DNA from: an uncultured Gammaproteobacteria bacterium
GTDB lineage: Bacteria > Patescibacteriota > Patescibacteriia > UBA10025 > JAHIVO01
Assembly (NCBI GenBank): GCA_964415025.1
Contig: CAYPXF010000005.1
Location: 1,484-65,483 of the forward strand
DNA: 64,000 nt
Direction: 5' to 3'
Notes under the pieces: generated by a model
The model's input: the letters and a program-made list of their open reading frames with translations, nothing else
The model's database searches: none
What the model was told of the DNA's origin: nothing
Part shown: in pieces, positions 1,264 to 22,915 of the stretch
Position numbering within the stretch: the first letter of the stretch is position 1
How the letters are laid out: each line of letters opens with the position of its first letter
Program-made: the position numbers and the translations under genes

Positions 1264-1328
1264 ATTAAGCGATGTTAAAGGGCCGGCTTTGTTAAGCGGC
1301 CTAGTAGGATGCGTGTTTATGTCGGAGT

Positions 1329-1886: not shown

Positions 1887-1906
1887 ACTTGTTTTAGGTT
1901 AGTTAT

Positions 1907-2440
1907 TTATGGTGTTATTAGCACAGTGAGGGCTGATGCAGAGACTTCAAACGAGTCGCTCATATCCTCGTCAGATCTAACAATTACCCGATTGCCTGTT
2001 TTGATTTGTTCCGGCAAAATCTGTTCCTGTTCTGTGCTGTTTTGGCCCGGCGATGAAGGATTTGTCAAATCCCAGCGGGTCAGGATTGTAGCTGGCTTCA
2101 GTATAGCAGTAATAGTATCAGTATTCAAAGCAGCTGCGGTATGGTCATCGACACTGATTTGTACGTCGTTATCATTTATATTTGTAACTGTGCCATACCA
2201 ATTTTGGGTATTGGCGCCGAGAATATGTTGCGTTTGACTGACATCGATAACCGGGGCACTCCTCGGCTGGTTATCAGATTTGTTTTTTCCTATTGAAAAG
2301 GAAGCAATTGTTAATGTAATAATGATCAGTACCCCTAATGATATAAAAAAAACAATTTCAGCAGCGGGAATATGTATGTTAGCAGGGGATGGCTTTGGTT
2401 GTTCGGAGTCTATTTTTTGTTTTGTTTTGTTGTTTGACAT
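1907..2440 (-). CDS. hypothetical membrane-anchored protein
   Basis: 177 aa ORF on the same strand as and adjacent to lemA/htpX; single TM helix after a Lys/Pro-rich N-terminus; no recognisable domain. Confidence 0.55.
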   Translation of the reverse strand: MSNNKTKQKIDSEQPKPSPANIHIPAAEIVFFISLGVLIIITLTIASFSIGKNKSDNQPRSAPVIDVSQTQHILGANTQNWYGTVTNINDNDVQISVDDHTAAALNTDTITAILKPATILTRWDLTNPSSPGQNSTEQEQILPEQIKTGNRVIVRSDEDMSDSFEVSASALTVLITP

Positions 2441-2586
2441 AAAGGGGTAAAATGTGTTAAAATTAATGCACGTAAAAATTCTGTATTCAGTTTAATTATT
2501 GTAAGTTATCGGTTTTTTGTCAAATATTGTTTTTATCACTTTGGCATTAGGCAGGATTCAAAAAAATAAAATATTGGGGGAATTCC

Positions 2587-5421
2587 GTGTTCACAAACCG
2601 AAAACAATTTATAGGTATGTATAAATGGGCTTTTTTTAGCCTATTTTTTTGTCTGGTAATTATTGCTTTAGGCGTGCACCAAATCCATGCAAAAGTTATC
2701 GATCCAGAGGCGGCGCCACCAGAGAAAAATATGCCTGATTATATAAATATTGGCGGTGAGCATCAGGCTAAGCAGGGTGCCTTGCGATTGGGCAGTGATG
2801 CTGTGGGCGATCCGTATGAATACCAGCTCGAAGTAGTCGGTGAGGGCGGATTAATATCTAATACTAGCATAGAAAAAGACTTACGAGTTGAGTCAAATAC
2901 GGCCAGTGATCCGGCTCTGTATGTGGACGCAATCAATAATAAGGTATGTATAGGGGCATGTCTGGACCAATCAAATACCAGATTAGAAGTAAGCGGCAAT
3001 ACTCGGATAGACGCAGATCAATCTGAATATGGGATCAGGTCATATAGTGCTGGCCAAGCACTCTATGGCTGGGGCAGTACGTACGGTATCCAGGGGGTTA
3101 GCTCATCAGCTGACGGATATGGTATTTGGGCATCAAGTCCGCTAAGCACCGCGCTCGAAGGAGTAAATATTAATAATGCTTACAGCGGGGTGGCCGGATT
3201 TAGTACAGATGGCATCGGTATTTACGGCGCCAACACGAATTATCAGGGATTATGGGCCGGATATTTTGACGGACGAACTGAATCAACCAGGCAGGTCATT
3301 GGCCGTAAGTTTGTGCCTACCTCATATCCGCCGGCGATGGTGCAAAACACGTCAGGCCAGGTCGCTGGCTCGTATACGGTCAGCGGACGGCGGCTGGTCC
3401 ATGCCGATAGTTCTTTTGTCTGGACTAGTACGACCGCCGGATCGCTGTACAAAAGCAGAATCAGTGATATGCAGGATCAGTGGGAAGCAAGTCTCGGCGC
3501 TGAAACAACTGACGGGCTATATGACAGTAATAATTTTTGGGCAGTCATTCCTGCGAGCCAGGAGGTAAAAAAGATTAACGCTGATACCGGTATCGAGAGC
3601 TGTTCGTACACTGCCAGCAGTACTCCAACCGCCGTCACGTTTGACGGTAGCAGCTACTGGGTAGCTACTGATGAAGGACGGAGCGTAATCCAATTAGACA
3701 GCGATTGTAACGAAGTGCAGACAATTTTTATCGGCTATAATCTGACCGATATTATTTTTGATGGCACCTACTTATGGGCGGTATCAGATATCAGTGAGTA
3801 TATTATCAGCATAAATCCGTCTAATCCGTCCGGCAGCGAAGCCACTGCGTATGCGGGTATTAGTGGTAATAATCCTGGCAGGCTTTTGTTTGATAATTAT
3901 TATTTCTGGGTAATTAATCAGGATGATGATACTGTTACTGCGTTTTACCTGCGTGACGGCATGGCCAGGAAGTTTAATACCTATCAGACCGGCACCGGAC
4001 CAGCTGATCTGGTTTTTGATGGTATGCATGTATGGATTATGAACACGGATGGCCAGAGCGTATCCCGTTTACTCGCTGCTGATCCAACGCAAAAAAAAGA
4101 TATTCAACTGAATTTTGCACCGACCGGCATCGGATTTGACGGGACATATATCTGGATTTCAGGCGATAGCAGTATGGTGAAGCTGTATTCTGGAGTCGGG
4201 CATGGCACGATTGATGTTAGCAATGCTCTAGCCCTGCAAACAGCCACGGCCTCGATAATCCAGCGAGGTTACGCGGCTCTGACCGGATCTGCACGCGTCG
4301 GTGGGAATGCCTCATTTGCCGGTGATATAACTACCGCCGCTAACAGCTGGGGAACGGCGCAATCAGGAGATGTAATCATGAGTGATTATGGTGATACCTG
4401 GGCGCAGATGGGCAATCCCGGCATCAGTGAACGCTGGGTATTGTCATTTCTAGAGACTGATGACGGTACGATTTATGCCGGTACGTTTGATCAGGGAAAT
4501 GTGTATACCTATGATGCTGATACAGATACTTGGACTAATACCGGCGATTTAACCGGCGCAACCTATGTGTATGATCTTATCCAGACAGCAGACGGCACAA
4601 TATACGCCAGCACCGGCCAGAATGGTGATGTGTTTACCTATAATCCAGGCACAGATACGTGGACCAATACCGGAGAAATAACTGGCGCAGTCGATGCTAC
4701 CAGTTTATTACTGGGCCGCGACGGCGTACTCTATGTCGGAGTCGAACGTGCGGCAGGCACGGCACTGTTTTCATATAATCCCGGTACAGACATATGGACA
4801 GAGCGTGTGGCAATACCCGGGACAATACATTTATCCGATATGATCCAAGCTCGTGACAATATATTGTATATTGCCGCTCGTCCGTCAGATACGCCTGACC
4901 AAGGCGATGTTTACAAATACGACCCAGTCGCTGACACGCTGGTTAATTCCGGAAATTTGGCTGGAGCAACACGTGTCTATGATTTACTAGAAACAGCTGA
5001 CGGTACTATCTATGCGGCCACTCATCCAAATGCACAGGTCTTTGAGTACGACCGCTTTACCGACTCCTGGACAGGTTTAGCAGTGCTGCCGTGCGGAAAC
5101 GGGGTATGGTCGCTGCTGGAAACAAATGACGGTGCGCTGTATGCTGGCACAAACTGCAACGGGGACGTGTATGCCTATGACTTTATTAATGACCAATGGG
5201 ATATCGTGGGTTCAATGGGCAGTGCGACGCTGACAACGGCACTGTACGAGACAAGTGATCACCGGATCATGGCCGGTACTGCGTATGATACCGGCGTATT
5301 TCAGCTGACCATCACGCCGCTTTCGGCAGGCACGTACAGCTGTCCGGACGGTCATTTTGTTACTAGCATCACTACTAATAGCATAGACCAGGTTATCCGC
5401 GTTGATTGCCGGCCATTATAG
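2587..5421 (+). CDS. giant surface protein paralog A (944 aa): signal anchor, conserved N-terminal Gly-rich module, FDGTYLW-type beta-propeller, Kelch-like beta-propeller, C-terminal two-Cys module ending CRPL
   Basis: GTG start 7 nt after a GGGGGA RBS; N-terminal TM; six ~45-aa blades with [FY]DG.Y.W[VI]; six repeats DGTIYAGT...V[YF]TY[ND]..TDTWT; shares N- and C-terminal modules with the next two genes. Confidence 0.8.
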   Translation: MFTNRKQFIGMYKWAFFSLFFCLVIIALGVHQIHAKVIDPEAAPPEKNMPDYINIGGEHQAKQGALRLGSDAVGDPYEYQLEVVGEGGLISNTSIEKDLRVESNTASDPALYVDAINNKVCIGACLDQSNTRLEVSGNTRIDADQSEYGIRSYSAGQALYGWGSTYGIQGVSSSADGYGIWASSPLSTALEGVNINNAYSGVAGFSTDGIGIYGANTNYQGLWAGYFDGRTESTRQVIGRKFVPTSYPPAMVQNTSGQVAGSYTVSGRRLVHADSSFVWTSTTAGSLYKSRISDMQDQWEASLGAETTDGLYDSNNFWAVIPASQEVKKINADTGIESCSYTASSTPTAVTFDGSSYWVATDEGRSVIQLDSDCNEVQTIFIGYNLTDIIFDGTYLWAVSDISEYIISINPSNPSGSEATAYAGISGNNPGRLLFDNYYFWVINQDDDTVTAFYLRDGMARKFNTYQTGTGPADLVFDGMHVWIMNTDGQSVSRLLAADPTQKKDIQLNFAPTGIGFDGTYIWISGDSSMVKLYSGVGHGTIDVSNALALQTATASIIQRGYAALTGSARVGGNASFAGDITTAANSWGTAQSGDVIMSDYGDTWAQMGNPGISERWVLSFLETDDGTIYAGTFDQGNVYTYDADTDTWTNTGDLTGATYVYDLIQTADGTIYASTGQNGDVFTYNPGTDTWTNTGEITGAVDATSLLLGRDGVLYVGVERAAGTALFSYNPGTDIWTERVAIPGTIHLSDMIQARDNILYIAARPSDTPDQGDVYKYDPVADTLVNSGNLAGATRVYDLLETADGTIYAATHPNAQVFEYDRFTDSWTGLAVLPCGNGVWSLLETNDGALYAGTNCNGDVYAYDFINDQWDIVGSMGSATLTTALYETSDHRIMAGTAYDTGVFQLTITPLSAGTYSCPDGHFVTSITTNSIDQVIRVDCRPL

Positions 5422-5432
5422 ACTAAAGAATA

Positions 5433-8400
5433 ATGAAACATTTTGTCACATCGTATAATCGCAGAATATTATTACCAATAGGTTTGCTGGTTATTGTTTT
5501 AGCTCTGGTCGGAACCGTGAAGATAACTTATGCTGCCTGGGAAGAACCGCAGGCAGAACCGCCTGACGATAACATGTTTGCCCCGCTGGATGTGAGTGAT
5601 AATAACCAGGCTAAGCGCGGCCGCCTCCTGCTCGACCCGCTGTACAATCCGCTGGGCGCAATACCTGAAATTGATTATCCGCTCGAAGTCAGAGGTCCAC
5701 GCGACGTGTATATCAATAAACTCGAGATAGTAGCCGAAGGCGACCTTAGTGTCGATACAGATACGCTCGTGGTAGACGGTACTGGCCATATGGTCGGTAT
5801 GGGCACTGGCAGCCCGGACGAGCTGCTGGATATCCGCGGTTATGGCGCGACACTAGGCAGCGACAGCCAACTAATCAGCGGCAATGCGCTGGTAGTGACT
5901 GATGTGGGCAAATACGGAGCGTATGGCCTGTCACAGGGAGACAGCATTGCTTCAGTGCTTGGTGAGAGTGATAGCGGTTCAGGCATCTACGGTCTGCACA
6001 CTGCTGGTGGTACAGGCATCATGGCGCAGAGCGAATCCGCGTCTGCGGTCCGGGGAACAGTGTCAGCAGCGGCAGGCAGTCCGGTCGCTGCTGGTATATA
6101 TGCCCAGGCGCAGGGGCTGGGCTCGTGGGCCGGGTATTTTGCCCAGCGTGTGTATGGCACGCAAGAAGTAGTCGGATCAACATTTTTACCGACTGCATTA
6201 CCCTATTCGAGTATTCCGTATTCAGTTGGCTGGAAAACGCAGGACATCGCCCAAAGCTATGTACCGGCTTTTAGTAGTATCGCTTTTGACGGACGGTATC
6301 TCTGGATAAATAATTATACAGCCTATTGGAGTCAGGCTCCATATATTCACAAAATCGATGCCTATACTGGCGAACAGGTAGAAGCATTTAAGGTTTCTGG
6401 TGCGGAACACGCCTATAATAGCCCGGGCATGGGGACTATGGACTATGCTGGCGGCTATATTTGGATGGCAAATCCGTATAAAGACAACGAAGGGATATAC
6501 CGTATTGACCCGCATAGCCAGGATTATGACACTACGCTGTACTCTGTCGGAACCCATGATGCTGATGGCGATGGTAATACTGATGACGGCGAAAGTGACG
6601 GTCCGTTTGATTTTATATATGATGATATTACCTATCCTGATAATACGTTTGTCTGGGTAGTCAGTGATTACGAGGACAATGCCGCTGCTTCTCGCTATTA
6701 TATTACCAGACTTCAGCCAGCGGCCGATGAATACGGTTTTTGCTCTGACCCATCACAGCTGACGCAGGCGGGCTGTACTGGAACATGGTATGATGACTTG
6801 AGCGAGCTTGATTTCAGTGGCGCGACTTGTCCGGTATGCGTTAATTGTACCGGCACGACTACTACCGAACCATGCAGTGTGCCTGGATATTATACTGAAG
6901 CAGAATGCACCAACCCTTCGGTCGGAGGCGCCTGGGATCCAGATGCAAATTTTGGTTATGCCGAGCTGCGCTATCCCAGCGGCATCACTTTTGACGGTAC
7001 AAAAATCTGGGTCAGCTTTGCTGGCGGCGGCGCGTATGCCAGCGGGCTGGTTTCATTTGACGCGGCCGATCCTGTTAATACCGCGACAACGCATTGTGCC
7101 GGACCAAATCGCAACTTGCAAACAATTGACTGGGGCAGCGGCATGCTATGGGCAGGGGATAAACAACGGGAAAACGAAGTTGTCAGATTATTTGCTATTG
7201 ATCCAGCCGCTGATCCGCTGTATCTGGGCATTGATGATTATGGCTCGTTTGGAAGTGAGTTGGGAAGCGGTACAATATCTATCCTGGCATATGATGAGAA
7301 GTCAGCAGGCGGGCCATATCTCTGGGTTATTAATCCTTTTCATTTCGCAAAATTTTCTATAAATCCGGTGACAAAGACTTTGGCCCCGGCACATGTGTAT
7401 AGCCTCTATAATAGCGGGTATAATTTTGCCTTTGCTGAAAATGAAGCCGGCGAACGGACTGTATGGACTACTCATGGGAACGTTGGCGGTATTATCGAAC
7501 ACTTAGTTGATACGAGCGTGGCGCTCCCCGGTAACAGCCCGTATGCTCCGTATTACCAACGTGCGTTTTTGCCCGTGGGGGCTAGTGTTGGAGGAATGGT
7601 TTTTGACAGTACCTATATTTGGACAGCAGATCGTAATACTAACAAATTAAGTAAATTTAACATTGCTGACGGAAGCAAAATGGGTGATTATGACGCCGGA
7701 TGGTATCCGCTCGGCATAGTGTATGACGGCCGCTATATTTGGACAGTAAATAGTGATGAATATGGCTATAAACCAAACACAAACGATCTGACCAAATTTG
7801 ATCCAGTGAATGGTGAAATCGTAGACGAGTATAAAATCACAAATTATAACGGAGAAATGGACATAGCGCGCGGTGGATATATTGATATGCGTTTTGACGG
7901 ACAATATATATGGATTACCTTTCCGGACAGTGATGAAATTGCCGTATTTGATCCTGATACCATCGATACCTCCGGTGTAACTTTTTATGATGATACAGAC
8001 CATGGTATTGATAATCCGTACCGTCTCGTGTATGACGGGGAGTCTATGTGGGTATCGCATATTGATAATAAGATTTCGCGCGTTCAATCGGACGGAACTA
8101 ATGCGTTTACCAGGACATTTGATATAATTGACGGCGGTGTAGCTTATAATATTAGCGCGCTGGAATTTGACGGCACTTATCTTTGGATCGGCACTAAATT
8201 TATGGACACGCAAGGACGGAGTGTGTATAAATATGACCCAGCAGGAGATGTAATTGTTGATGAATTTACTGTATATAATGATTCGGGCATATGTTTAGCT
8301 GGTGAGCGGCAGTATCAGTATTGCCGCAGTGATGCTGACTGTCCTAGCAGTACATGCGACGCAAAAGGCTCTCGGGTAACCGATATATTATTTGATGGTA

Positions 8401-9305
8401 CGCATGTGTGGATTAAGCATGGGGGTAGGAATGATGATGCCGGTAGTATTGAGTGTAATGATGGCATAGACAATGACGGGGTAGGACATTGCGATATCTC
8501 GCCGTACGCGGTATGTACGAGCGACGCGGAATGTACTCCTGGTACCTGTGACTTCACTGATCAGGATGATGACCGTGGCGGCTGGTGTGAAAACACTTTT
8601 GATTTACATGAAGGATCGCGGTGCAATGATGATCAGGATAATGACCAGGATGGTACATGCGATCATGATGGGTGCAATGGATTGCCGGCAGATCTTGATT
8701 GTACTGATGAATTTTCTGATGCCGAGGGCAATCCTGAATGCAGCGACGGCTGGGATAATAACGGCGACGGACTGTGCGACTATGACGGCGCTGTCGGCGC
8801 TCCCGGGTGCAGCGGTAAGCCAGATCCGGGCTGTTCGAGCGCGAGTGATGCTAGCGAGGCAATACCTTCGACGCATTCAGCGCATTTAACGCGCATAATA
8901 CCGGCGACTGGAGCAGTGGTTGAGAGTCTGTATTATGATCGCTATACCCAAGTTTCAAATCATTTAGTATATGATGGCAGCAAAATCTGGATCGGAGATG
9001 GTAGTACCACGAGCCGTGAAACAGTGCATAGTTATTATGCCGGCACTGGACTGCGGACTGATTTGTCAGATACTGTCGTGCGGCAGGGCAGTTTTCCGGG
9101 CACGGCACAGATCGGACTGGCCAGCTACCATGGCTCACTGACTGTGGATACTGCCCTGGAGGTAATCGGCGATCTGGTCGTGACTACCAATATTTGGGGC
9201 GGTACTGCTGACGATGTGAAGGCGTTTGGCACGGCCTGTGATGACGGCCAGTTTATAAAAGGGATTGACACCACCAGCGGCCAATCCCAATGCCGACCAT
9301 TATAA
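5433..9305 (+). CDS. giant surface protein paralog B (1290 aa): same N-terminal module, FDG.Y.W beta-propeller repeats, Ca-binding Cys/Asp (TSP3-like) repeat region, C-terminal two-Cys module ending QCRPL
   Basis: starts 12 nt after paralog A stop; N-terminal TM; motifs NMFAPLDV..QAKRGRLLLDP, GIYG/GIYA repeats, SWAGYF; CNDGIDNDGVGHCD...CSDGWDNNGDGLCDYDG repeats; C-terminal NIWGGTADDV...C..GQFIKGI...QCRPL. Confidence 0.8.
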   Translation: MKHFVTSYNRRILLPIGLLVIVLALVGTVKITYAAWEEPQAEPPDDNMFAPLDVSDNNQAKRGRLLLDPLYNPLGAIPEIDYPLEVRGPRDVYINKLEIVAEGDLSVDTDTLVVDGTGHMVGMGTGSPDELLDIRGYGATLGSDSQLISGNALVVTDVGKYGAYGLSQGDSIASVLGESDSGSGIYGLHTAGGTGIMAQSESASAVRGTVSAAAGSPVAAGIYAQAQGLGSWAGYFAQRVYGTQEVVGSTFLPTALPYSSIPYSVGWKTQDIAQSYVPAFSSIAFDGRYLWINNYTAYWSQAPYIHKIDAYTGEQVEAFKVSGAEHAYNSPGMGTMDYAGGYIWMANPYKDNEGIYRIDPHSQDYDTTLYSVGTHDADGDGNTDDGESDGPFDFIYDDITYPDNTFVWVVSDYEDNAAASRYYITRLQPAADEYGFCSDPSQLTQAGCTGTWYDDLSELDFSGATCPVCVNCTGTTTTEPCSVPGYYTEAECTNPSVGGAWDPDANFGYAELRYPSGITFDGTKIWVSFAGGGAYASGLVSFDAADPVNTATTHCAGPNRNLQTIDWGSGMLWAGDKQRENEVVRLFAIDPAADPLYLGIDDYGSFGSELGSGTISILAYDEKSAGGPYLWVINPFHFAKFSINPVTKTLAPAHVYSLYNSGYNFAFAENEAGERTVWTTHGNVGGIIEHLVDTSVALPGNSPYAPYYQRAFLPVGASVGGMVFDSTYIWTADRNTNKLSKFNIADGSKMGDYDAGWYPLGIVYDGRYIWTVNSDEYGYKPNTNDLTKFDPVNGEIVDEYKITNYNGEMDIARGGYIDMRFDGQYIWITFPDSDEIAVFDPDTIDTSGVTFYDDTDHGIDNPYRLVYDGESMWVSHIDNKISRVQSDGTNAFTRTFDIIDGGVAYNISALEFDGTYLWIGTKFMDTQGRSVYKYDPAGDVIVDEFTVYNDSGICLAGERQYQYCRSDADCPSSTCDAKGSRVTDILFDGTHVWIKHGGRNDDAGSIECNDGIDNDGVGHCDISPYAVCTSDAECTPGTCDFTDQDDDRGGWCENTFDLHEGSRCNDDQDNDQDGTCDHDGCNGLPADLDCTDEFSDAEGNPECSDGWDNNGDGLCDYDGAVGAPGCSGKPDPGCSSASDASEAIPSTHSAHLTRIIPATGAVVESLYYDRYTQVSNHLVYDGSKIWIGDGSTTSRETVHSYYAGTGLRTDLSDTVVRQGSFPGTAQIGLASYHGSLTVDTALEVIGDLVVTTNIWGGTADDVKAFGTACDDGQFIKGIDTTSGQSQCRPL

Positions 9306-9311
9306 TCTCTT

Positions 9312-11795: not shown

Positions 11796-11800
11796 TTTCC

Positions 11801-14800: not shown

Positions 14801-17800
14801 GGCGATAGTATTAATGTATCTGAAAATACACCTGGATATTCATTTCTGAATTGTGAAGATGCCAACATGAAACAAATGTTCCGTGGCTATGCCAGACGGA
14901 ATAGTTCGTCACCAAGCACTGACCCATCTCCTGCTGCGGAAGACACATTGCCGCCATGCCAGCCGTGGAGTTTAGGCCATGCTAATAATCCTCAATATAG
15001 CAAAATCCAATGGCAATGGTGGGCACCGATTGCCGCTGATTATACTGGTAATCCTGTACATCACTATAATGTGTATGAACCTACATATCTAGCACGCCAT
15101 TGTGACGCGGGTAATGCGAGCGATCTGTACTGTGATAATCCGTTTGATGTGCAAATAGATGATTCGTGCTCCGGGCCGTTTTGCTTATTCTCGTATACCC
15201 AGGAGCAATACCAGCGTATACCAAAGTTTGACAATAACACCCAGTACAGTACGAAGGTGCGCGCGGCAGACAGCCGGGGGCGCTCAGGCAGGCCTTCGGC
15301 AGAAGCATGGGCCTACACTGCTATTGAAACACCGACCGGTATTACCTTTGATGACGTACAGACTGATACGATCGCGCTTAATGGCGACGGGACGTTCAGT
15401 AATTTTTCGATCGGATCGACTGGACTGCAGTTTCAGGAAACCACGTCTCATAACGGCGGCGGTGCTGACAGCGGCGAACTTGGTTTTACGCCGTCCGGGT
15501 GGCTGTCTAACGGCCAAAGCACAACTGACAAAGGACTGGACCAAAATACGAAATACTGCTACCAGGTGCGGGCCCGCAATGCCGAGGGGCACCTGTCGGG
15601 GCCGGGAGATATTACCGGTTTTGTGCCGGCTAGTGCGGAATGCCGGTATACGCTGGCAGGGACGCCGAACATGCCTATCCTGGAGCGTATTGACGGCGAA
15701 ACAATTAATATTACGGTACGTGATACTGATGATAATCCGCACGGCTCGCCAACTGATAATGGCGGAGAGACTCAATATGCCCTGTGTATCACAAAATTCG
15801 ATGATGATAATGTGGTAGAATTCGAAAAATACGTCCGGCCGGACGGGACGATAGATTACGCCGGCGTTGACTGCGCATCTGGAAACGGTACTGGCTATTG
15901 GCAGTCATACGACGGCTGGGGCAATACGGCCGGAGTGACTATCGGTAGTCTAGAAGCGTCCGCCCGGTATGATTTTAAATTCAAGGCGCGCAACGGCGAC
16001 CATATAGAAAACGGCGCTGACAGTTCTGGCTGTACTGCTAATGAGACCTGCATTGAAACAACGTTTGGCCCGGAAGCGACACTGTTCCTGGTGAAGAATA
16101 ACGTAGTCGGCTGGGCCTGGTCGTCTAATAGCGGCTGGATATCGCTGAACTGCCTGAACCAATTTTACGCGGGCGACCAGTACAGCTGTGACAGCGCTGA
16201 TGACTGGGGGCTGAATACTGATTTTGTCGAGGGACGGGACGTGAATCCGATCGAGGGCTATGCCTGGTCTGCGTCCGGACGCGCCATAGACAAAGTATGG
16301 ACAGGCAGCAATATATTAGTAGACTATGCCCTACCGAGCCGCGTACAGCACAGTGCGCGTGCCGGCTCTTTTATCTGGGCTACGGCCGGTGATGCCTTGT
16401 TGCGCATTGACGCGGCCAGTGGCGTGGAATACACGTGCGTCGGCAGTGCCGAGCTGTCTAATGACTGGGAACGCTGTACTTTTGGTGATGATTTGCGCGA
16501 TATAGTCTATGATGGCACCTACCTGTGGGTCAGCTCGTATAATGACAGCATTATCTACCAGGTCAATCCGGTCGACGGCACTGTTGCCGCGGTCGACAGC
16601 GGTTCGATACAGCTCCAGGGGCTGACTACTACACCGCAGGGCATAACATATGACGGTACCTACCTGTGGGTGACTGATCCGACCAATGACCGCGTGCTAC
16701 AGGTCGATCCAGCGGCCGGCAGTGAGGTAGATCAAATTGATGTCGGGGACCAGCCTCAGTATCCGTATTATGACGGTAAATACATATGGGTGGCCAACGC
16801 CGGTGAGACACACAGCGGCCAGGTTTCGCGGATTAGTGTTGCGGATAACACGGTGACATCGATCGATCTTAGCAATGATAACGCGTATGATATTAGTTCA
16901 GATAACGAACATATTTGGATCAGTCATGCGAATACGGAGGTGATAACTATTATTTCTCCGGATGGTTCTGATCAAGCTACTATTAATACCGATGGAGCCG
17001 ATTCCCGTGGTATAGCCTATGCTGATGGCTATATATGGGCGGCTGATCAGGACGCAGATACGATATACCAGATCGATATAGTAAGCAGGGATGTGGTCGC
17101 CGAGCATGAGGTCGGCGGGAATTATGATCCACTGCATATGAGTATTGATGACGCATATATCTGGGCCAGTACGGACGACGGTGAGGTCGGCGGACAGTAT
17201 ATAGCGCTGCAGCGGCTCGAAACCGGTGTATCACCGGATAAGGTCGGCCTGGGCTGGCTGACATACTCGCGCGGCGTCTGCTCTGATAACGCGCAAAAAC
17301 CATGCGACCCTGACCGTAATACCTGCGGCGGTACAGCTACCTGTGAGCCAGCAGCCGGACTGCCGCCAGACAGTACGGCCTATGGCTACTGCTATACAGA
17401 CGGCACGCCAGATGAACGGTACGGATTATGCTCTGTCAATACGGGTGCTGTCTGTACCGACAGCATTGCCTGCCCTGATCCAGAGGAGACGTGTATTTAT
17501 CACACATGCCAGACCGGTGATACCTGTCCGGATTATGGTAGCGGAACAGAGGTATGTGTGGCTATGGCAACCACGAATTTTGACGGGTTAACACGCGAAG
17601 TACGGGGCTATGGCCGCTCGCTGACCATGGCGCAGCGCGGCGCGGCGCTCGGCTTCGATGACTGGGGCTGGATCAGTATGGACGGCACGTATACAGACGA
17701 AGCCGATGCAGTGGCGCGCTACGGCGTTACCGCCACTGACGTGGATTCACAGCTGTTTCTGGGCGATCCTGACGTCAATCCAGACGACGTCATCCTGTAC

Positions 17801-20800
17801 AGCCTATTTGGCTGGGGCTGGAATGCGGAGGTGTCTGATTTTGGGCCGGTATCAACCTGGTTAAATCCGCTTAATGTCAGCAATACGAAAAAAGTAAACC
17901 ATAGTGCCGGTTGGCCGGTTACTGAATCCAGTATTGCCATCGACAGTACTGGTAATCCTCATATTGCCTGGTCACAGTTCAATGAAAATTCTGGATTTAA
18001 TGATATATACCATGTGCGACTGATCGGCGGGCAATGGCAAATGATGGATGGCTCCGTATACCAGCCTGGCGTTAGTGAACCGATTGTGAGTACAGTCACT
18101 AATTCTGGGATGCCGTCTTTAGCGGTCGACAGCAGTAATATTCCGCATCTGGTATGGCAAGAGCAGGAAGGGACCGAGGCTGATATCAGCGGTGGAGAAT
18201 TACAATACTCTACGTGGAACAGCGAAACAAACACCTGGACTGCTATGCAGCAGATAGAAACATCCGGACCCAGCTGTGGCGGCGCTTCACTTGTCATAGA
18301 TGAAGCAAACCGTCCGCATGTAGCATACCGTGTCCATTCGTATGATGATTCTGAAATTTATTATCGTTATTTTAATGGCAGTGACTGGGTAACAGCGAGC
18401 GGTGATACTGGCACAACAGACATAAATGTTAGTAACACGGGATCGCCACATTCGTACCAGCCGCGCTTGGTTTTAAGTGATGAAACAACACAGCGGCCAC
18501 ATATAGTATGGAGAGAACAGGTCGGCGCCGAATATCACATTTATTACCGGCATTGGGACGGCAATGACTGGGTAACAGCGAGCGGTAATACTGGTGATAC
18601 TGACGTATCGGTTAATGGAGACCTTGGCACGGTGTTAGGCATATCGATTGAGGGCGCAAATCCAGACATAGTCCTGTATGCTGATAACCGTCCTGGTATT
18701 ATATGGCGGGATCCGGGCATGGTGCTGTACCGCCAGTGGAATGGCAGTGCCTGGGTAGACGCTAATCCTGACGACGGGGATACTGATGATGATATATGGA
18801 TAAATATTCATGAGGGCAGTGATGTGGAGCACTTGGCGCATTCAGGTAAAACACCGCGGGTTGCTATAGATAGTGATGATCAGCCGCATGTGGTATGGGG
18901 CGATTATCCGTCAGGCGGCGACAGTAGCGGTGATATCAGATACCGCTGGTGGAATGCAAGCGCCGAGGCGGGCAATGGCGCTTGGGTTACCTCGTCCGGA
19001 GATTATACTGTCAGCGGGTCTCATTTTGATGATGATTCGCTGACTATCCATGAATCGCCAAATATAGGCTCGACACTGCCGGATTTTACCATGGATGCTT
19101 TAGGCAACCCTCATGTAATATGGCAAGATGTCCGGTATAAGCTGAATGATGACGCAGCAGAATGTGCGGCAAATGGTGATATTAATTGTATCTGTTCGAG
19201 CCATGCTGATTGCGGCGATCCTGATTATCCGTTTTGCATGACACGAAGTCCGGATAAATACTGCGGTGCTGCTGATGTTAAATACGCTGGCTGGCTGCCC
19301 GGTCGAGTACGCTCGGGTATTGGCTGGGTAGAGTTTATGCCGGTCGGCGCGCTAATCGGCGTGCCCTGGGTACAGACCCTGTACAGCGATATCTATGCCC
19401 AGGAAAATATCGGCCTGGCACCGCCGCCGCGCGGCACGGGTACGTACACGGCCACGTATTTGATCCTGGCCAACGGTGATATCCAGGGTATTCCCAGCTA
19501 TTATACCAGCTCGCAGACTGGCGAGCCGACCAGCGGGTATTATGAACCGGGTCTGGAATCCTTGATCGAGGACGCAGGGTATCCGGTCGGCCGCGACGCG
19601 CTGTCCCAGATCGATGTTGATAATTTGATTGCCGCAAACGATGAGAATAATGCGTACGGCAATCTGGTGCATAATTATGATAATTCCGGCTCGAGCAGTG
19701 TTAATATCAGCCCAGACTTGACTAGCGGACCGCTAAACGGGGAGGTATTCTATTTCCATGATGCAGACAATGGCCTGTATCAAGTCAACGATATTATCCG
19801 CTTTAACAAAGGCGAAAGCCAGATTAACCAGACAGCCGGACACGGTTTAGTAATAATAGACGGCGATCTGGAGATTAATAGCCCAATATATTATGAAAAG
19901 CGGTGTAACGGACTTGCCGGCGAGACAATATGCACGACTAATAACGAGTGTGACAGCGGCGAAGTATGCCGTGCTGTCGAGCTGGATGATGTCAGTGAAA
20001 TGCCGTCAGTAGCCTTTATCGTCCGCGGTAATATTTATGTAAATTCCCAGGTCAATGAACTGGCCGGCGTGTATGTGGCTCTGGATCCTGATACGACTGA
20101 TGAGGTGGATAAAGGTATTATCTACACGAGTCGCAAAGCGCCAATAACACAAACAATCATTGCGAGCGAAGACGATACATCAGTAGACAGTGCGTATACG
20201 AATAGCTCAAGTGCGGACACAGTTTCGTTTGGTCAAAACAGTAGCATTGCCCAGCGCGGGTTCCTGCGCTGGCAGCTCAATGTTCCTGCTGGCGCAGAGA
20301 TACGCAACGCCTACCTGCGCCTGTACGGCGACGGTAATGGTAATGCTACGGATTTCCGGGCCCGTATCTATTTATTAGATACTGCCAACGCTGAACAAGT
20401 ATCGAATGACTTTACCGCTAATCCTAACCAAAGTTTGTTTGACGCTGATACATCGAACAGCGTCAGCTATGATATCAATGAAGATACCTGGGATACTGGC
20501 GGCTGGAATACCAGTCCGGATATTTCCGCGCTGGTGCAGAAATTCGTGAATGAGCCGACGTATGAATCAGGTAATTATATCGGTATAGAATTACGTGAAG
20601 AGGCCGGCGTCGACGGCTGGCGCGGTTTTGAGGCGTATGATGCGGTTGCTGCAAACTATGCTGAATTAGTGGTCGAATATTCGCCGCGGCGGACAGTGTA
20701 CTCTTTAGCAGATATAGACGGTGATGACGCACCGGATGAGCAGAGCGATTACGCGGCCTGGGGCACTGGTTCGGGCACATGTGATCAAAATGATGATGAT

Positions 20801-21490
20801 ACTACCCGGGGGCCTTGTGTATATAACCCATTAATAAATAGGTTTGGATTTGGCTCATACAGTTTGACAACTGATGCGAGCCGGATATTTTTCCACTTTG
20901 GTCCGTATGATTCGGACTATAGCACCATACCTGAACAGGCAGAAATTCTGGAATCTCATGTTGTCGTGAGCCCGTATTCAGGTGGAGATGCCGGATTCCA
21001 GGCGCGGCAGGGTTTGCTAGACTCGGCCATAGCCGATTTTGCGGGCTTTACTGATAATCCGTATGAATTGACGATGTCACCGGAAGTATCTGAAATCGCT
21101 GAAGAAATAACAGATTCATGGGACAGTTTGAGCATCTTTTCATTTGCTGACACCAGCCGGCTGATCCAGGCCTGGGTAGATTTAGAAGACTATACCGCCG
21201 GTGATGATATTGGCATCAGACTGCGCAAAGGCAGAAATGAGCAGATCTATGAAAATGAAGCCAGCAGGACTATACAGACCGGGCAGTCACGGCTCGAAGT
21301 CGACTATCTGACCCCGTTGCGTGTGTCAGGATTGTTCGTGGCGCGCGGCTATAGCTTTGACCGGAAGTATACTAAGGACCTTGCTGCCAGTGAGCAGATC
21401 TTGTATGATGGGAGAGTAGTGGCCAATACGCCGCCCGGCTTGTCAGACTTTACACGGGCGCTTCCGGTATACGCGCGAGTAACACCGTAA
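11801..21490 (+). CDS. giant membrane-anchored mosaic surface protein (~3229 aa): FN3-like domains, FDG/YDGTYLW beta-propeller, seven tandem ~45-aa PH[IV].W repeats, C-terminal triplicated DNRLRE-like/carbohydrate-binding-like domains
   Basis: single 9.7-kb ORF; ATG at 11801 is 6 nt after paralog C stop (the ORF track opens it at an overlapping TTG at 11780); N-terminal TM (IVFALLSIASLIVVIGLLYIVMAG); many Cys-rich and Asp-rich segments. Confidence 0.8.
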   Translation: MDQSIRHNNTFSKIVFALLSIASLIVVIGLLYIVMAGQTQDATETDPETVLDPALAQEVRNYEIVDNGDGTHSALYGVGPIQYLTNNPGEYAAIDSTIVESAREGVAYENTTNVINTFFGSDVTDPNFISYQIPGERGVGFTFPDAQQSAWAVAENVATYPELYPGMDARYTIQNDVMLEELIVDNKEDASNFHRLDQQVTLHDVYFREQDDGSITFHDADTRHAVFVIPRPVLYEDGDTLRQNANYGLHFEISRTDTDTYLISKVIDDGGKEWLEKADYPIIIDNTYIGGFNAAVGSTKRYKRIGGASWSWSIMMDSGIYGYPFITTGKYTNGCSLGNSSCIQHEYHGHYTFHTYDVGAPYTQDQVVGARFQVSMVRSDDDGEYLAPVNVYSGANAWDPNKSFSESFTAAEIEDRWNALTSMHQEVDIDTAGLPTYTNRGMCYPGSSPEQCRRVVDIDLNSIGMTSSQDHTQIMLDAPSASYLNCGGSSCNDFHGVISWRPVSSTDMPYPKLEVIYYPDPTIRVDPMAIPEGEKKMEIQIDDDFTDDSSYKLERSFDGSGGPWTEVCSNIATGASGTCQSGITYDCTGITEAGTSGYCTVTDDISVSGGGPRYSDKHTWYRARVVGTSGYVSDYSPVAHDYTFAYPYPEAPPNSDSSESWDKIKIWAPGSGNEYSNQGSFLTIDPEPTKYCMATYTPSMLGWYNPPTNDWRYHHHSSAAYSDVWNEYSEGTYDGRDYINNNDGDNLACKTMAQWIYFGGYPYYSIGEVEDSYRLRPNTYYAFSFLSQNTRDGTVNSPIVMPEYAQTRARVPSKPIQNNGITTQNALGLALDSTPQYAPTEYVNDPNGNTTYAMYVEELNRYFNSDTGTLSSSAVWRRESDWGGAGGIAYGGFAPGTCYSIKAKSRNGASIEGETPARIWSDTGQYCTKMAVPSLSVACQYTDADDDYNCDITLDANGNPAGTEYKFEYCLPESGSNCSAGSGDWQEILIGGKEWNSYNHGDSINVSENTPGYSFLNCEDANMKQMFRGYARRNSSSPSTDPSPAAEDTLPPCQPWSLGHANNPQYSKIQWQWWAPIAADYTGNPVHHYNVYEPTYLARHCDAGNASDLYCDNPFDVQIDDSCSGPFCLFSYTQEQYQRIPKFDNNTQYSTKVRAADSRGRSGRPSAEAWAYTAIETPTGITFDDVQTDTIALNGDGTFSNFSIGSTGLQFQETTSHNGGGADSGELGFTPSGWLSNGQSTTDKGLDQNTKYCYQVRARNAEGHLSGPGDITGFVPASAECRYTLAGTPNMPILERIDGETINITVRDTDDNPHGSPTDNGGETQYALCITKFDDDNVVEFEKYVRPDGTIDYAGVDCASGNGTGYWQSYDGWGNTAGVTIGSLEASARYDFKFKARNGDHIENGADSSGCTANETCIETTFGPEATLFLVKNNVVGWAWSSNSGWISLNCLNQFYAGDQYSCDSADDWGLNTDFVEGRDVNPIEGYAWSASGRAIDKVWTGSNILVDYALPSRVQHSARAGSFIWATAGDALLRIDAASGVEYTCVGSAELSNDWERCTFGDDLRDIVYDGTYLWVSSYNDSIIYQVNPVDGTVAAVDSGSIQLQGLTTTPQGITYDGTYLWVTDPTNDRVLQVDPAAGSEVDQIDVGDQPQYPYYDGKYIWVANAGETHSGQVSRISVADNTVTSIDLSNDNAYDISSDNEHIWISHANTEVITIISPDGSDQATINTDGADSRGIAYADGYIWAADQDADTIYQIDIVSRDVVAEHEVGGNYDPLHMSIDDAYIWASTDDGEVGGQYIALQRLETGVSPDKVGLGWLTYSRGVCSDNAQKPCDPDRNTCGGTATCEPAAGLPPDSTAYGYCYTDGTPDERYGLCSVNTGAVCTDSIACPDPEETCIYHTCQTGDTCPDYGSGTEVCVAMATTNFDGLTREVRGYGRSLTMAQRGAALGFDDWGWISMDGTYTDEADAVARYGVTATDVDSQLFLGDPDVNPDDVILYSLFGWGWNAEVSDFGPVSTWLNPLNVSNTKKVNHSAGWPVTESSIAIDSTGNPHIAWSQFNENSGFNDIYHVRLIGGQWQMMDGSVYQPGVSEPIVSTVTNSGMPSLAVDSSNIPHLVWQEQEGTEADISGGELQYSTWNSETNTWTAMQQIETSGPSCGGASLVIDEANRPHVAYRVHSYDDSEIYYRYFNGSDWVTASGDTGTTDINVSNTGSPHSYQPRLVLSDETTQRPHIVWREQVGAEYHIYYRHWDGNDWVTASGNTGDTDVSVNGDLGTVLGISIEGANPDIVLYADNRPGIIWRDPGMVLYRQWNGSAWVDANPDDGDTDDDIWINIHEGSDVEHLAHSGKTPRVAIDSDDQPHVVWGDYPSGGDSSGDIRYRWWNASAEAGNGAWVTSSGDYTVSGSHFDDDSLTIHESPNIGSTLPDFTMDALGNPHVIWQDVRYKLNDDAAECAANGDINCICSSHADCGDPDYPFCMTRSPDKYCGAADVKYAGWLPGRVRSGIGWVEFMPVGALIGVPWVQTLYSDIYAQENIGLAPPPRGTGTYTATYLILANGDIQGIPSYYTSSQTGEPTSGYYEPGLESLIEDAGYPVGRDALSQIDVDNLIAANDENNAYGNLVHNYDNSGSSSVNISPDLTSGPLNGEVFYFHDADNGLYQVNDIIRFNKGESQINQTAGHGLVIIDGDLEINSPIYYEKRCNGLAGETICTTNNECDSGEVCRAVELDDVSEMPSVAFIVRGNIYVNSQVNELAGVYVALDPDTTDEVDKGIIYTSRKAPITQTIIASEDDTSVDSAYTNSSSADTVSFGQNSSIAQRGFLRWQLNVPAGAEIRNAYLRLYGDGNGNATDFRARIYLLDTANAEQVSNDFTANPNQSLFDADTSNSVSYDINEDTWDTGGWNTSPDISALVQKFVNEPTYESGNYIGIELREEAGVDGWRGFEAYDAVAANYAELVVEYSPRRTVYSLADIDGDDAPDEQSDYAAWGTGSGTCDQNDDDTTRGPCVYNPLINRFGFGSYSLTTDASRIFFHFGPYDSDYSTIPEQAEILESHVVVSPYSGGDAGFQARQGLLDSAIADFAGFTDNPYELTMSPEVSEIAEEITDSWDSLSIFSFADTSRLIQAWVDLEDYTAGDDIGIRLRKGRNEQIYENEASRTIQTGQSRLEVDYLTPLRVSGLFVARGYSFDRKYTKDLAASEQILYDGRVVANTPPGLSDFTRALPVYARVTP

Positions 21491-22811: not shown

Positions 22812-22846
22812 ATATTGACAAAATAGTAAATATATACCATAAAAAG

Positions 22847-22870: not shown

Positions 22871-22915
22871 AGTTTACGAATACAATTAAAGTAAGGATAA
22901 AAAACTTAAAAAACC

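What the first reader, a model, noticed from the sequence alone, without database searches (positions are those of the whole stretch)
2587..21490. Operon of four giant surface proteins (19 kb) directly upstream of the type IV pilus locus
Four consecutive plus-strand ORFs of 944, 1290, 827 and ~3229 aa are separated by only 6-12 nt. Each opens with an N-terminal signal anchor. Together they fill 30% of the window. They are built from beta-propeller repeats ([FY]DG.Y.W[VI]), Kelch-like repeats, Ca-binding Cys/Asp repeats and FN3-like units. That composition fits an extracellular adhesin or host-attachment apparatus. The co-orientation and immediate adjacency to the complete T4P locus (the next gene is pilM) suggest one pilus-plus-adhesin attachment module. 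This architecture is what one would expect for an epibiotic, host-dependent lifestyle, and as an ensemble it is uncharacterised.
Basis: partly seen in the sequence, partly recalled or inferred. Interest (0 to 1): 0.85.

Follow-up and report, generated by a model that had tools for sequence, protein, structure and literature searches.

The report
Enlarged adhesin genes fronting a pilus locus
Four large exported-protein genes sit directly in front of the type IV pilus genes of an ultra-small, host-dependent (Patescibacteria) bacterium. They are a greatly enlarged version of a small, undescribed gene module found in the same position in many related genomes, which makes them strong candidates for the still-unknown proteins that let these bacteria recognise and hold their hosts.

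Summary
Four + strand genes (944, 1290, 827 and 3229 aa) lie 5-11 nt apart, followed by pilM. An independent assembly reproduces the block at 100% identity. The organism is a Kerfeldbacteria-related Patescibacterium.

The block is conserved with the pilus locus. In 17 loci from related genomes, found through the four genes themselves, the giant gene directly precedes pilM-N-O-x-pilB-RR-pilC-pilin.

The reverse test is the main new result. In 58 of 60 metagenome loci found through PilM alone (43-66% identity), the gene ending just before pilM carries P4's conserved C-terminal core. Its size ranges from about 540 aa to over 3300 aa. One to three smaller genes with the P1-P3 N-terminal module often precede it. 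The "giant operon" is therefore an enlarged form of a widespread two-family module that Pfam, NCBIfam and the searched literature do not describe.

P1-P3 have a cleavable signal peptide, a conserved mature N-terminus, one phage-tail-fibre-like repeat and beta-propellers. P4 has an N-terminal anchor, GW repeats, an ice-binding-protein-like beta-solenoid (fold similar to ComZ and tapirin) and a conserved tail. Two propellers and two CBM96/DNRLRE-like modules are inserted into it.

The best reading is pilus-coupled host-glycan adhesins. Physical attachment to the pilus is inferred, not shown.

The parts
2434..2463 (+). Best sigma-70-like promoter match (TTGACA-18-TAAAAT with TG) in the divergent intergenic region upstream of P1. 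Candidate operon promoter.
   Evidence: 11 of 12 positions match, the top-scoring site in 2000-21900. This is a consensus match only.
2587..5421 (+). P1, 944 aa. Signal peptide aa 1-35. N-module aa 35-256. FDGxYxW propeller about aa 262-560. Kelch/Reg_prop-like second propeller about aa 610-910. C-terminal C-x2-G-x-F...C-R-P-L motif aa 919-944.
   Evidence: Kelch_3 39 bits, Reg_prop 38 bits; A3 profile E 5e-61.
5433..9305 (+). P2, 1290 aa. Signal peptide (TYA|AW). N-module aa 34-264, including a tail-fibre-like unit at aa 96-141. Nine FDGxYxW blades between aa 285 and 1187. Cys/Asp-rich acidic repeats aa 1008-1134. C-terminal Cys motif.
   Evidence: phrog_5906 E 1e-6; A3 E 1e-77.
9312..11795 (+). 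P3, 827 aa. Signal peptide (VQA|VW). N-module aa 32-262. 7/8-bladed beta-propeller aa 262-640 with a Cys-rich insertion. Cys-rich region and C-terminal Cys motif aa 687-827.
   Evidence: pLDDT 70-93 in the propeller; YncE 3vgz, Tako8, WD40 and YVTN 1l0q, E about 1e-12; A3 E 1e-91.
11801..21490 (+). P4, 3229 aa. A giant member of the 'pre-pilM' protein family.
   Evidence: A5 profile E 2e-57.
11837..12670 (+). P4 N-terminal hydrophobic anchor (aa 13-35) and clade-conserved N-terminal domain (aa 46-290).
   Evidence: about 40% identity to orthologues; P4_Nt hits only in giant-clade loci.
15329..15592 (+). FN3-like unit (P4 aa 1177-1264).
   Evidence: fn3 E 2.4e-5, 24.9 bits against a cut-off of 25. 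Borderline.
16328..17200 (+). P4 propeller 1 (aa about 1510-1800; FDGxYxW blades; DUF6923). It is inserted between GW motifs GYAWSAS (aa 1486) and GLGWLTY (aa 1816).
   Evidence: (DUF6923, 32 bits against a cut-off of 27).
17918..19150 (+). P4 propeller 2 (aa about 2040-2450). Seven P-H-[IV]-[AV]-W units with a period of about 60 aa. Together with Cys-rich linkers it is inserted between GWGWN (aa 2004) and GIGWVEF (aa 2506).
   Evidence: The propeller fold is inferred from the repeat pattern and was not modelled.
19304..20134 (+). First part of the conserved pre-pilM core (P4 aa 2502-2778). GIGWVEF..PWVQT..APPPRG..YTATYLILANG segment, then a beta-solenoid.
20144..21274 (+). Two CBM96/DNRLRE-like beta-sandwich modules (P4 aa about 2782-2969 and 3013-3158). 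They are inserted where short family members have about 33 aa.
21275..21487 (+). Conserved C-terminal tail of the pre-pilM family (P4 aa 3159-3229): L.VSGLFVA.GY.FDRKY...E.I.YDGRV.ANTPPGL.DF...LP.Y.
   Evidence: A5 positions 246-319, i-E 4e-19. The last 45 aa have pLDDT below 50 in the monomer model.
21657..30837 (+). Core of the T4P locus. pilM 21657-22811. Long pilN-like 23104-24975. pilO 24977-25561. FN3-like membrane protein 25569-26735. pilB 26742-28493. Receiver-only response regulator 28512-28901. pilC 28940-30145. Major pilin 30385-30837.
   Evidence: The same order is found in all related loci.
31147..39533 (+). Distal part of the T4P locus. GT2 31147-32169. Wzy_C/TPR 32181-34229. Pilins 34279-34761 and 34776-35195. 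Prepilin peptidase PilD 35332-36084. Minor pilins 36081-36767, 36771-37385 and 37451-38182. PilX/GspK-like protein 38175-39533.
355..2440 (-). Divergent, syntenic neighbours. M48 peptidase 355-1263. LemA 1329-1886. 177-aa membrane protein 1907-2440.
   Evidence: The M48-LemA pair is conserved next to the module in many loci. No functional link has been shown.

Best explanation
The four genes encode Sec-exported, extracellular, modular binding proteins that work together with the adjacent type IV pilus (T4P). They are the enlarged form of a two-family module that precedes pilM in many Patescibacteria.

Family 1 (P1-P3):
- A cleavable signal peptide.
- A strictly conserved mature N-terminus: W-x-[ED]-P-x3-P-[PG]...Q-x-K-x-G-x-L.
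- One phage-tail-fibre-like repeat unit and a Gly-rich stalk.
- Variable heads, which here are beta-propellers.

Family 2 (P4):
- An N-terminal membrane anchor or signal.
- GW hairpin repeats.
- An ice-binding-protein-like beta-solenoid.
- A conserved tail of about 45 aa.
- In this clade, about 2,700 aa of extra modules have been added at the N-terminus or inserted into loops of this scaffold. They include an FN3-like unit, two propellers, Cys-rich linkers and two CBM96/DNRLRE-like glycan-binding modules.

Proposed mechanism:
1. The conserved ends hold the proteins on the cell surface or on the pilus, most attractively on the minor-pilin tip complex.
2. The variable modules bind host-surface glycans.
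3. Pilus extension and retraction bring the host surface and these adhesins together.

What is shown: the gene structure, the export signals, the fold assignments and the conserved linkage to pilM. What is inferred: adhesion, the ligands, oligomeric state, and any physical contact with the pilus.
For: The genes are real and reproducibly assembled.

Export: each protein has one N-terminal hydrophobic segment and no other. P1-P3 orthologues have AxA|(E/A)W sites.

Linkage to the pilus locus:
- P4-type gene followed by pilMNO-x-pilB-RR-pilC-pilin in L008-L010 and in 13 of 13 GTDB species loci.
- In 58 of 60 PilM-anchored metagenome loci an A5-type ORF ends within 800 nt upstream of pilM. Across all 70 loci with a usable pilM start (both scans), the median gap is 82 nt and 62 gaps are 150 nt or less.
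- N-module or same-motif ORFs lie directly upstream of the A5 gene in 23 of 31 loci with enough flank.

Folds:
- P3 propeller.

Conserved ends with variable middles and lengths of 3229-5075 aa among orthologues are typical of adhesins. The N-module unit matches the phage family phrog_5906. Other proteins built of this unit match that family too, along with tail and tail-fibre families.

Precedents:
- TM7x PilX2 propeller protein, proposed as a pilus adhesin (PMC12206443).
- TcpF, which docks on the tip minor pilin through its free N-terminus (PMC9565799).
- Kerfeldbacteria, reported as unusually firmly host-attached (PMC7906910).
Against: There is no experimental or expression data. There is no sequence similarity to PilY1, ComZ, tapirin or any solved structure.

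The solenoid similarity rests on a medium-confidence model (pLDDT about 55-80), and beta-solenoids match each other generically. The most conserved stretches, which would be the proposed docking elements, are exactly the parts the monomer models leave undefined.

The genes sit next to pilM, not next to the minor pilins (36-39.5 kb), which is where PilY1-type genes usually lie. The 166-nt gap before pilM in this window carries a weak terminator-like hairpin, so co-transcription with pilM is not certain.

The loci were found through P4 or through one PilM subfamily, so the breadth across all Patescibacteria is not established.
Confidence: 0.6

Rival explanations
1. Structural parts of the envelope or of the pilus machine. 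The pre-pilM protein (P4 family) would be a fixed extracellular component of the monoderm Patescibacteria T4P apparatus. It could be, for example, a wall- or S-layer-spanning collar or anchor built from GW repeats and the solenoid. P1-P3 would be S-layer-like surface-lattice proteins. The inserted modules would merely decorate the cell surface.
For: The position directly before pilM is almost invariant in 58 of 60 loci, which looks like a core machine gene. GW-type repeats recall cell-wall-binding repeats (own knowledge; Pfam CW_binding not hit). YVTN propellers occur in archaeal S-layer proteins (1l0q among the hits). Periodic surface layers are seen on ultrasmall groundwater cells (PMC7906910).
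Against: Machine parts are usually length-conserved, whereas this family ranges from about 540 aa to over 5000 aa with shuffled binding modules. No SLH or S-layer family was hit. CBM-like modules point to ligand binding. The number of N-module genes varies from 0 to 3 per locus.
Confidence: 0.2
2. Cargo of the pilus machine acting as a secretion system. The four proteins would be released (type II secretion or TcpF-like) to attack or digest the host envelope, rather than staying attached as adhesins.
For: They are Sec-exported, with conserved terminal peptides that could serve as secretion signals. T4bP systems secrete operon-encoded TcpF and CofJ (PMC9565799). Omnitrophota giant proteins next to T2SS-like loci were proposed to digest prey walls (bioRxiv 10.1101/2023.11.21.568195).
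Against: No hydrolase, lyase or protease domain was found in any of the four, only binding-type folds. Without an outer membrane, Sec export alone should release a protein through the membrane (own knowledge). P4 has an apparently uncleaved N-terminal anchor.
Confidence: 0.1
3. Artefact or foreign DNA: an assembly chimera, or a prophage tail-fibre cluster that happens to lie next to the pil genes.
For: The N-module contains a unit related to phage tail-fibre repeats. Giant repetitive genes are prone to misassembly.
Against: An independent assembly is identical. There are no long DNA repeats. The gene order is conserved at 30-49% protein identity in more than 15 species-level genomes. No phage genes flank the block. 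tblastn of the N-module against 50,697 phage genomes found nothing. GC content and GC skew are continuous with the flanks.
Confidence: 0.02

Closest known systems
PilY1 / PilC (non-pilin, tip-associated adhesin of type IVa pili)
   Same: It has a Sec-type rather than a prepilin signal and is encoded within pilus gene clusters. It contains a beta-propeller. It has a conserved C-terminal part and a variable N-terminal binding part. It carries acidic motifs of the kind that bind calcium in PilY1.
   Different: There is no match to the PilY1/PilC Pfam domain or to any PilY1 structure. The conserved core here is a beta-solenoid plus tail, not the propeller. The genes lie before pilM rather than among the minor pilins. 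There are four proteins from two families. The organism is a monoderm Patescibacterium.
ComZ of Thermus thermophilus (tip pilin with an ice-binding-protein-like beta-solenoid; 6qvi)
   Different: ComZ is a true pilin with a GspK-like pilin domain and a prepilin leader. P4 has neither. There is no sequence similarity. ComZ binds DNA.
Tapirins of Caldicellulosiruptor (T4P-locus-encoded cellulose-binding beta-helix proteins; 6n2b)
   Different: The NCBIfam tapirin model does not hit P4 or the short family members. The size and domain make-up differ. The position relative to the pil genes differs.
TcpF / CofJ (operon-encoded proteins that dock on the tip minor pilin of type IVb pili through a free N-terminal peptide)
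   Same: Both have a Sec signal followed by a conserved mature N-terminus and are encoded in the pilus operon. TcpF binds as a trimer (PMC9565799), and P1-P3 carry a tail-fibre-type unit that suggests trimers.
   Different: There is no homology. TcpF and CofJ are small soluble proteins of diderm pathogens. Docking of P1-P3 is only a hypothesis.
PilX2 of Nanosynbacter lyticus TM7x (Saccharibacteria)
   Same: It belongs to a Patescibacterium, has a seven-bladed beta-propeller and no PilD-type signal, and is proposed to be the PilY1-like adhesin of T4P-2 (PMC12206443).
   Different: PilX2 is described as a pilin-like 'lollipop' and is encoded with minor pilins. Its sequence relationship to P1-P4 could not be tested here.
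Giant genes of Omnitrophota next to type II secretion / pilus-like loci
   Same: These are very large, modular, extracellular proteins in conserved proximity to a type IV filament system in putatively host- or prey-dependent small bacteria.
   Different: They belong to a different phylum and are much larger (25 kb or more). The secretion locus there has a secretin. No shared conserved core has been reported.

Membership tests
Type IV pilin / minor pilin | Prepilin leader ending in G, followed by [FM]-x-x-x-E and a hydrophobic helix (Pfam N_methyl PF07963) | tested here: not met
   N_methyl does not hit P1-P4, and their N-termini lack the G|FTLxE motif. Five genuine pilin genes in the same window do hit it.
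PilY1 / PilC | C-terminal PilY1/Neisseria_PilC propeller domain (Pfam) | tested here: not met
   No such Pfam hit at E <= 0.1 in any of the four proteins. No PDB sequence hit.
PilY1 / PilC | Encoded with the core minor pilins | tested here: not met
   The minor pilins lie at 36081-39533, about 15 kb downstream. The block lies before pilM.
PilY1 / PilC | Required for pilus priming and located at the tip | not testable with these tools
   This needs genetics or imaging.
CBM96 / DNRLRE domain | Beta-sandwich fold of the DNRLRE/CBM96 modules | tested here: met
CBM96 / DNRLRE domain | Match to the sequence models (NCBIfam DNRLRE, Pfam) | tested here: not met
   No such hit for P4 at E <= 0.1.
CBM96 / DNRLRE domain | Binding of an acidic polysaccharide | not testable with these tools
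   This needs glycan arrays or pull-downs.
Ice-binding-protein-like beta-solenoid (as in ComZ and tapirin) | Triangular right-handed beta-solenoid fold | tested here: inconclusive
YVTN / YncE-type beta-propeller | 7-8-bladed propeller built of about 40-aa blades | tested here: met
   The P3 model aa 262-640 matches YncE 3vgz (TMt 0.71-0.74), the designed Tako8 propeller and YVTN 1l0q. DUF6923 is above its cut-off in P4.
Kelch / Reg_prop propeller (C-terminal half of P1) | Pfam repeat models above the gathering score | tested here: met
   Kelch_3 39.0 bits (cut-off 22) and Reg_prop 38.2 bits (cut-off 20.4).
Fibronectin type III | Pfam fn3 above the gathering score | tested here: inconclusive
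   24.9 bits against a cut-off of 25 for P4 aa 1177-1264.
'Pre-pilM' family (defined here, profile A5) | Conserved C-terminal core (GLGW..F, solenoid, YDGR..N[TP]PPG tail), with the gene ending just upstream of pilM | tested here: met
   P4 matches A5 at E 2e-57 in two pieces separated by a 380-aa insertion. P4 is not in the A5 alignment. pilM starts 166 nt downstream.
'N-module' family (defined here, profile A3) | Signal peptide, then W-x-[ED]-P...Q-x-K-x-G, then one VDTDTLYVD..VGIGT unit, then a Gly-rich stretch ending in WAGYF | tested here: met
   P1-P3 match at E 5e-61 to 1e-91, but they are part of the profile. About 80 independent representative clusters show the same full-length N-terminal match.
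Sortase- or S-layer-anchored surface protein | C-terminal LPXTG plus a TM segment, or SLH domains | tested here: not met
   The C-termini are ...CRPL...CREL and ...ARVTP, with no C-terminal hydrophobic segment. No SLH hit.
Target of a diversity-generating retroelement | A template/variable repeat pair and a reverse transcriptase nearby | tested here: not met
   No direct repeat of 40 nt or more pairs with the block, other than diverged blade motifs.

The most novel reading that the evidence does not exclude
Patescibacteria may carry a previously unrecognised class of pilus-docked, exchangeable host-recognition proteins. In this reading the pre-pilM protein and the N-module proteins are loaded onto the type IV pilus, at the tip or along the shaft, through lineage-specific docking peptides. 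These would be the conserved 45-aa C-terminal tail and the conserved mature N-terminus. The loop-inserted or head modules (propellers, CBM-like domains) would then set host range. The extreme enlargement in Kerfeldbacteria would underlie their unusually firm host attachment.
Probability: 0.3. Interest if true: 0.85.

Novelty: new variant of a known kind. Interest (0 to 1): 0.7.

Why it matters
How ultra-small, host-dependent Patescibacteria recognise and hold their hosts is an open question. Pili are known to be required, but the binding proteins are not known (PMC12206443, PMC11880426).

This work makes that question testable in four ways:
- It defines two unannotated protein families that are genetically tied to pilM across many genomes.
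- It shows where their variable, ligand-binding parts are inserted.
- It identifies conserved terminal peptides as candidate docking elements.
- It gives concrete constructs for binding assays (the CBM-like modules and propellers) and concrete genes to delete in tractable relatives.

It also offers a genomic marker, the size and module content of the pre-pilM gene, that could be compared with attachment strength or host range.

Tried and rejected
- Sequence searches of P1, P2, P4 and of profiles A3 and A5 against all PDB chains found nothing useful.
- Pfam, NCBIfam and PHROGs gave only generic propeller or repeat hits for the four proteins. For short pre-pilM members they gave nothing, apart from a weak DUF7305 hit. 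No paper mentions DUF7305.
- The word-indexed homologue search found few P4 relatives, so loci were gathered by pattern scans instead.
- The AlphaFold-database fold library was not available.
- tblastn of the P2 N-module against 50,697 phage genomes found no match, so a prophage origin was rejected.
- Prepilin-type processing of P1-P4 was rejected from their N-termini and the absence of N_methyl.
- Sortase or S-layer anchoring was rejected.
- Diversity-generating retroelement targeting and tandem DNA repeats were not found.
- Rfam found nothing in the block.
- The P4-pilM spacer does not fold better than shuffled sequences (z -1.16).
- An assembly chimera was rejected.
Full report
**1. Observation**

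The window holds four consecutive + strand ORFs:

| Gene | Coordinates | Length | Note |
|---|---|---|---|
| P1 | 2587-5421 | 944 aa | GTG start with a GGGGGA ribosome-binding-like site |
| P2 | 5433-9305 | 1290 aa | |
| P3 | 9312-11795 | 827 aa | |
| P4 | 11801-21490 | 3229 aa | ATG start. The stop-to-stop ORF begins at TTG 11780. |

- The spacers are 11, 6 and 5 nt. The block is 18.9 kb, or 29.5% of the window.
- The best promoter-like site of the whole region (TTGACA-18-TAAAAT with an extended -10 TG) lies at 2434-2463, in the divergent intergenic region.
- Each protein has a single hydrophobic segment, at its N-terminus.
- pilM follows after 166 nt.
- A separate Logan assembly of run SRR7048225 reproduces all four genes at 100% identity.
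- The block has no long DNA repeats or tandem arrays. GC content and GC skew are continuous with the flanks.
- The block is therefore neither a chance ORF run nor an assembly chimera.

**2. Organism and pilus locus**

- Homologues of P3 and P4 come only from Patescibacteria MAGs, including Candidatus Kerfeldbacteria.
- Downstream genes are pilM, a long pilN-like gene, pilO, an FN3-like membrane protein, pilB, a receiver-only response regulator, pilC and the major pilin.
- These are followed by GT2 and Wzy_C/TPR genes, two more pilins, the prepilin peptidase, three minor pilins and a PilX/GspK-like protein, ending at 39533.
- No pilT is present in the window.

**3. Anatomy of P1-P3**

The three are paralogues. 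They share four features:
- A signal peptide ending in an AxA-type site.
- A module of about 230 aa whose first residues are strongly conserved (W-x-E-P-x3-P-P-x2-N...P-[LI]...Q-x-K-x-G-x-L). The module then has one unit L-x-VDTDTLYVD-x5-VGIGT-x2-P and a Gly-rich stretch ending in WAGYF-x-GR.
- FDGxYxW propeller blades.
- A small C-terminal C-x2-G-x-F...C-R-x-L motif.

Structure and family evidence:
- AlphaFold2 with 15 orthologues gave a confident 7/8-bladed propeller for P3 aa 262-640. It resembles YncE, designed Tako8, WD40 and YVTN propellers, so it is a generic fold.
- The N-module stayed below pLDDT 50.
- P1 has a second propeller, Kelch/Reg_prop-like.
- P2 has Cys/Asp-rich acidic repeats at aa 1008-1134.
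- A profile of the N-module (A3) was searched against 1.84 billion representative proteins. About 80 proteins of 600-2100 aa had a single full-length match at the N-terminus. Thousands of proteins are built from many copies of the VDTDTLYVD..VGIGT unit.
- Two such multi-copy proteins match PHROG families that include tail and tail-fibre proteins. P2 aa 96-141 itself matches phrog_5906 (E 1e-6).
- No Pfam family and no solved structure covers the module.

**4. Anatomy of P4**

Among orthologues of 3974-5073 aa, the N-terminal 290 aa and the C-terminal 770 aa or so are conserved at about 40-46% identity. The middle is rearranged.

The protein contains, in order:
- An N-terminal anchor.
- A borderline FN3 unit.
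- A DUF6923-type propeller (aa about 1510-1800).
- A Cys-rich linker.
- A second seven-unit repeat (P-H-[IV]-[AV]-W, aa about 2040-2450), which is probably a propeller.
- The conserved C-terminal region.

An AlphaFold2 model of aa 2460-3229 (pLDDT 58 overall) shows a beta-solenoid and two beta-sandwiches.
- The ComZ paper reports an ice-binding protein as the nearest relative of the ComZ solenoid (PMC6561018), so these hits belong to one fold class.
- This is fold-level evidence from a medium-confidence model. No sequence similarity exists.

**5. Synteny starting from the four genes**

- The order M48-LemA-small membrane protein (minus strand), then P1-like, P2-like, P3-like and a giant gene (plus strand), recurs in four other genomes at 30-41% identity.
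- In L008, L009 and L010 the giant gene (3974-5073 aa) is followed by pilM and the whole pilus set.
- A scan of one genome per GTDB species with the P4 C-terminal alignment gave 13 loci. In all 13 the giant gene is directly followed by pilM, and, wherever the stored flank reached far enough, by pilN-pilO-x-pilB-RR-pilC-pilin as well.

**6. Synteny starting from pilM (the reverse test)**

A PilM alignment scan of metagenome contigs returned 80 loci with PilM 43-66% identical to the window's.
- Of the 60 loci with at least 600 nt upstream, 58 have a + strand ORF ending within 800 nt of pilM that matches profile A5. A5 was built from the last 340 aa of 25 short members and does not include P4.
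- The two exceptions are L074, where other genes occupy the site, and L069, where the gene lies 5.5 kb upstream.
- Across all 70 loci of both scans with a usable pilM start, the median distance to pilM is 82 nt.
- Complete genes of this family range from about 540-860 aa, through 1100-1750 aa, to about 3000-5000 aa in the Kerfeldbacteria-like clade. These are stop-to-stop sizes and so are upper bounds.
- Short members consist of a signal or anchor, several GWAWS..GWISLN repeats, and the conserved core.
- P4 matches A5 in two pieces, aa 2502-2778 (i-E 2e-37) and aa 3159-3227 (4e-19). They are separated by 380 aa holding the two CBM-like modules, where the short member L099 has 33 aa.
- The two propellers likewise sit between halves of GW motifs.
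- P4 is therefore a scaffold protein enlarged by nested domain insertions.

**7. N-module genes are also widespread**

- In 14 of 31 loci with enough upstream sequence, one to three ORFs of 377-816 aa matching A3 lie directly before the A5 gene.
- Counting ORFs that share the signal peptide and the W/F-x-[ED]-P...P-[PG] N-terminus raises this to 23 of 31.
- The M48-LemA pair is often the divergent neighbour.
- The window's four genes are therefore the enlarged form of a recurrent [N-module x 1-3] + [pre-pilM] module.

**8. What it most likely does**

Shown:
- Exported proteins with no enzymatic domain.
- Binding-type folds.
- Conserved ends with variable middles.
- Tight and widespread linkage to pilM.

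Inferred:
- They are adhesins whose variable modules bind host-surface glycans and which act together with the pilus.
- The most conserved elements are the mature N-terminus of P1-P3, the GIGWVEF...YTATYLILANG segment, and the last 45 aa of P4. These are exactly the parts that monomer models leave undefined. That fits segments which fold on a partner.
- Precedents exist. TcpF hooks its free N-terminus onto the trimeric tip minor pilin (PMC9565799). PilY1-type proteins and ComZ sit at pilus tips. TM7x PilX2, a propeller protein without a PilD signal, was proposed as the adhesin of T4P-2 (PMC12206443).
- I put about 0.6 on "pilus-coupled surface adhesin module". Within that, about 0.3-0.4 goes to direct docking on the pilus.

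**9. Rivals**

- A fixed structural part of the pilus machine or envelope (0.2). The near-invariant position favours it. The tenfold length variation and the ligand-binding inserts argue against it.
- Released cargo or effectors (0.1). No enzyme domains were found and there is no outer membrane to cross.
- Artefact or prophage (0.02). This is contradicted by independent assembly, deep synteny and the absence of phage genes or phage matches.

**10. Comparison with what is known**

- The block works like the PilY1, tapirin, ComZ and TcpF class of pilus-associated binding proteins. However, it fails the membership tests for pilins and for PilY1 and has no sequence relationship to tapirin or ComZ.
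- Giant genes beside type IV filament loci are known in Omnitrophota. Those belong to another phylum and size class, and no shared core has been reported.
- Neither Pfam, NCBIfam nor the searchable literature describes the two families or their position before pilM.
- I therefore rate it a new variant of a known kind.
- One ecological link exists. Ca. Kerfeldbacteria was one of two lineages enriched in the >2.5 um size fraction, which was interpreted as especially strong host attachment (PMC7906910). This is a correlation only.

**11. Limits**

- The loci were reached through P4 or through one PilM subfamily (patterns WEAKKFV and EEMILDW), so the breadth across all Patescibacteria is unknown.
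- ORF sizes are stop-to-stop.
- Both structure models have mean pLDDT of about 57, and only their confident parts were used.

Noticed in passing
window 45506-58500: GC content drops to 0.32-0.39, against 0.45-0.53 elsewhere, starting right after tRNA-Pro(GGG) at 45506-45579 (-). The region holds duplicated pieces: 300 nt at 48551/51669 (94% identity; GAF domains of a 488-aa protein and a 7TM-GAF histidine kinase), 75 nt at 46519/57992 (91%), and a 58-nt promoter-like element at 46638/49442 ending in TTGGGGTATAATA. This may be an acquired island with paralogous sensor genes.
   Followed up: no
window 31147-34229: A GT2 glycosyltransferase and an O-antigen-ligase-like (Wzy_C) protein with TPR repeats sit between the major pilin and a second pilin gene. 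The GT2 gene follows the pilin in the related loci whose flank reaches that far, and a Wzy_C gene is seen in L010. This suggests pilin O-glycosylation.
   Followed up: partly
window 28512-28901: A receiver-only response regulator lies between pilB and pilC. It is present in the same place in every related locus examined.
   Followed up: partly
window 23104-24975: The PilN-like protein is 623 aa, with a low-complexity Lys/Glu/Pro-rich N-terminal extension of about 430 aa before its transmembrane segment. Related loci have 330-730-aa versions.
   Followed up: no
L017, L020, L023 (records CAZVMV010000001.1, CAZJUO010000006.1, CAZQBL010000016.1): Three public MAG records titled 'uncultured Gammaproteobacteria bacterium' carry this Patescibacteria-type giant-gene and pilus locus. 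The taxonomic labels look wrong.
   Followed up: no
L004/L005 12409-12822; L002 12373-13833: In one relative, a 137-aa gene of the 23S_rRNA_IVP family (PF05635) sits between the P3-like and giant genes. In another, the giant gene is preceded by a separate 486-aa ORF that matches the P4 N-terminus, which could be a split gene or a frameshift.
   Followed up: no
window 59997-60791: A DsbA-like thioredoxin with an N-terminal extension is present. This fits the large number of cysteines (9-59 per protein) in the exported P1-P4.
   Followed up: no
window 355-2440 (-) and many related loci: The M48 peptidase-LemA pair, plus a small membrane protein in close relatives, is the conserved divergent neighbour of the module, even in distant loci where the module is small. 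Whether this reflects function or only conserved gene order is unknown.
   Followed up: partly
window 38175-39533: The PilX/GspK-like protein (453 aa) ends in a Cys-rich C-terminal domain. Its N-terminal helix gives weak hits to the NCBIfam tapirin and ComGG models (E 0.007 and 0.05), below any cut-off.
   Followed up: no
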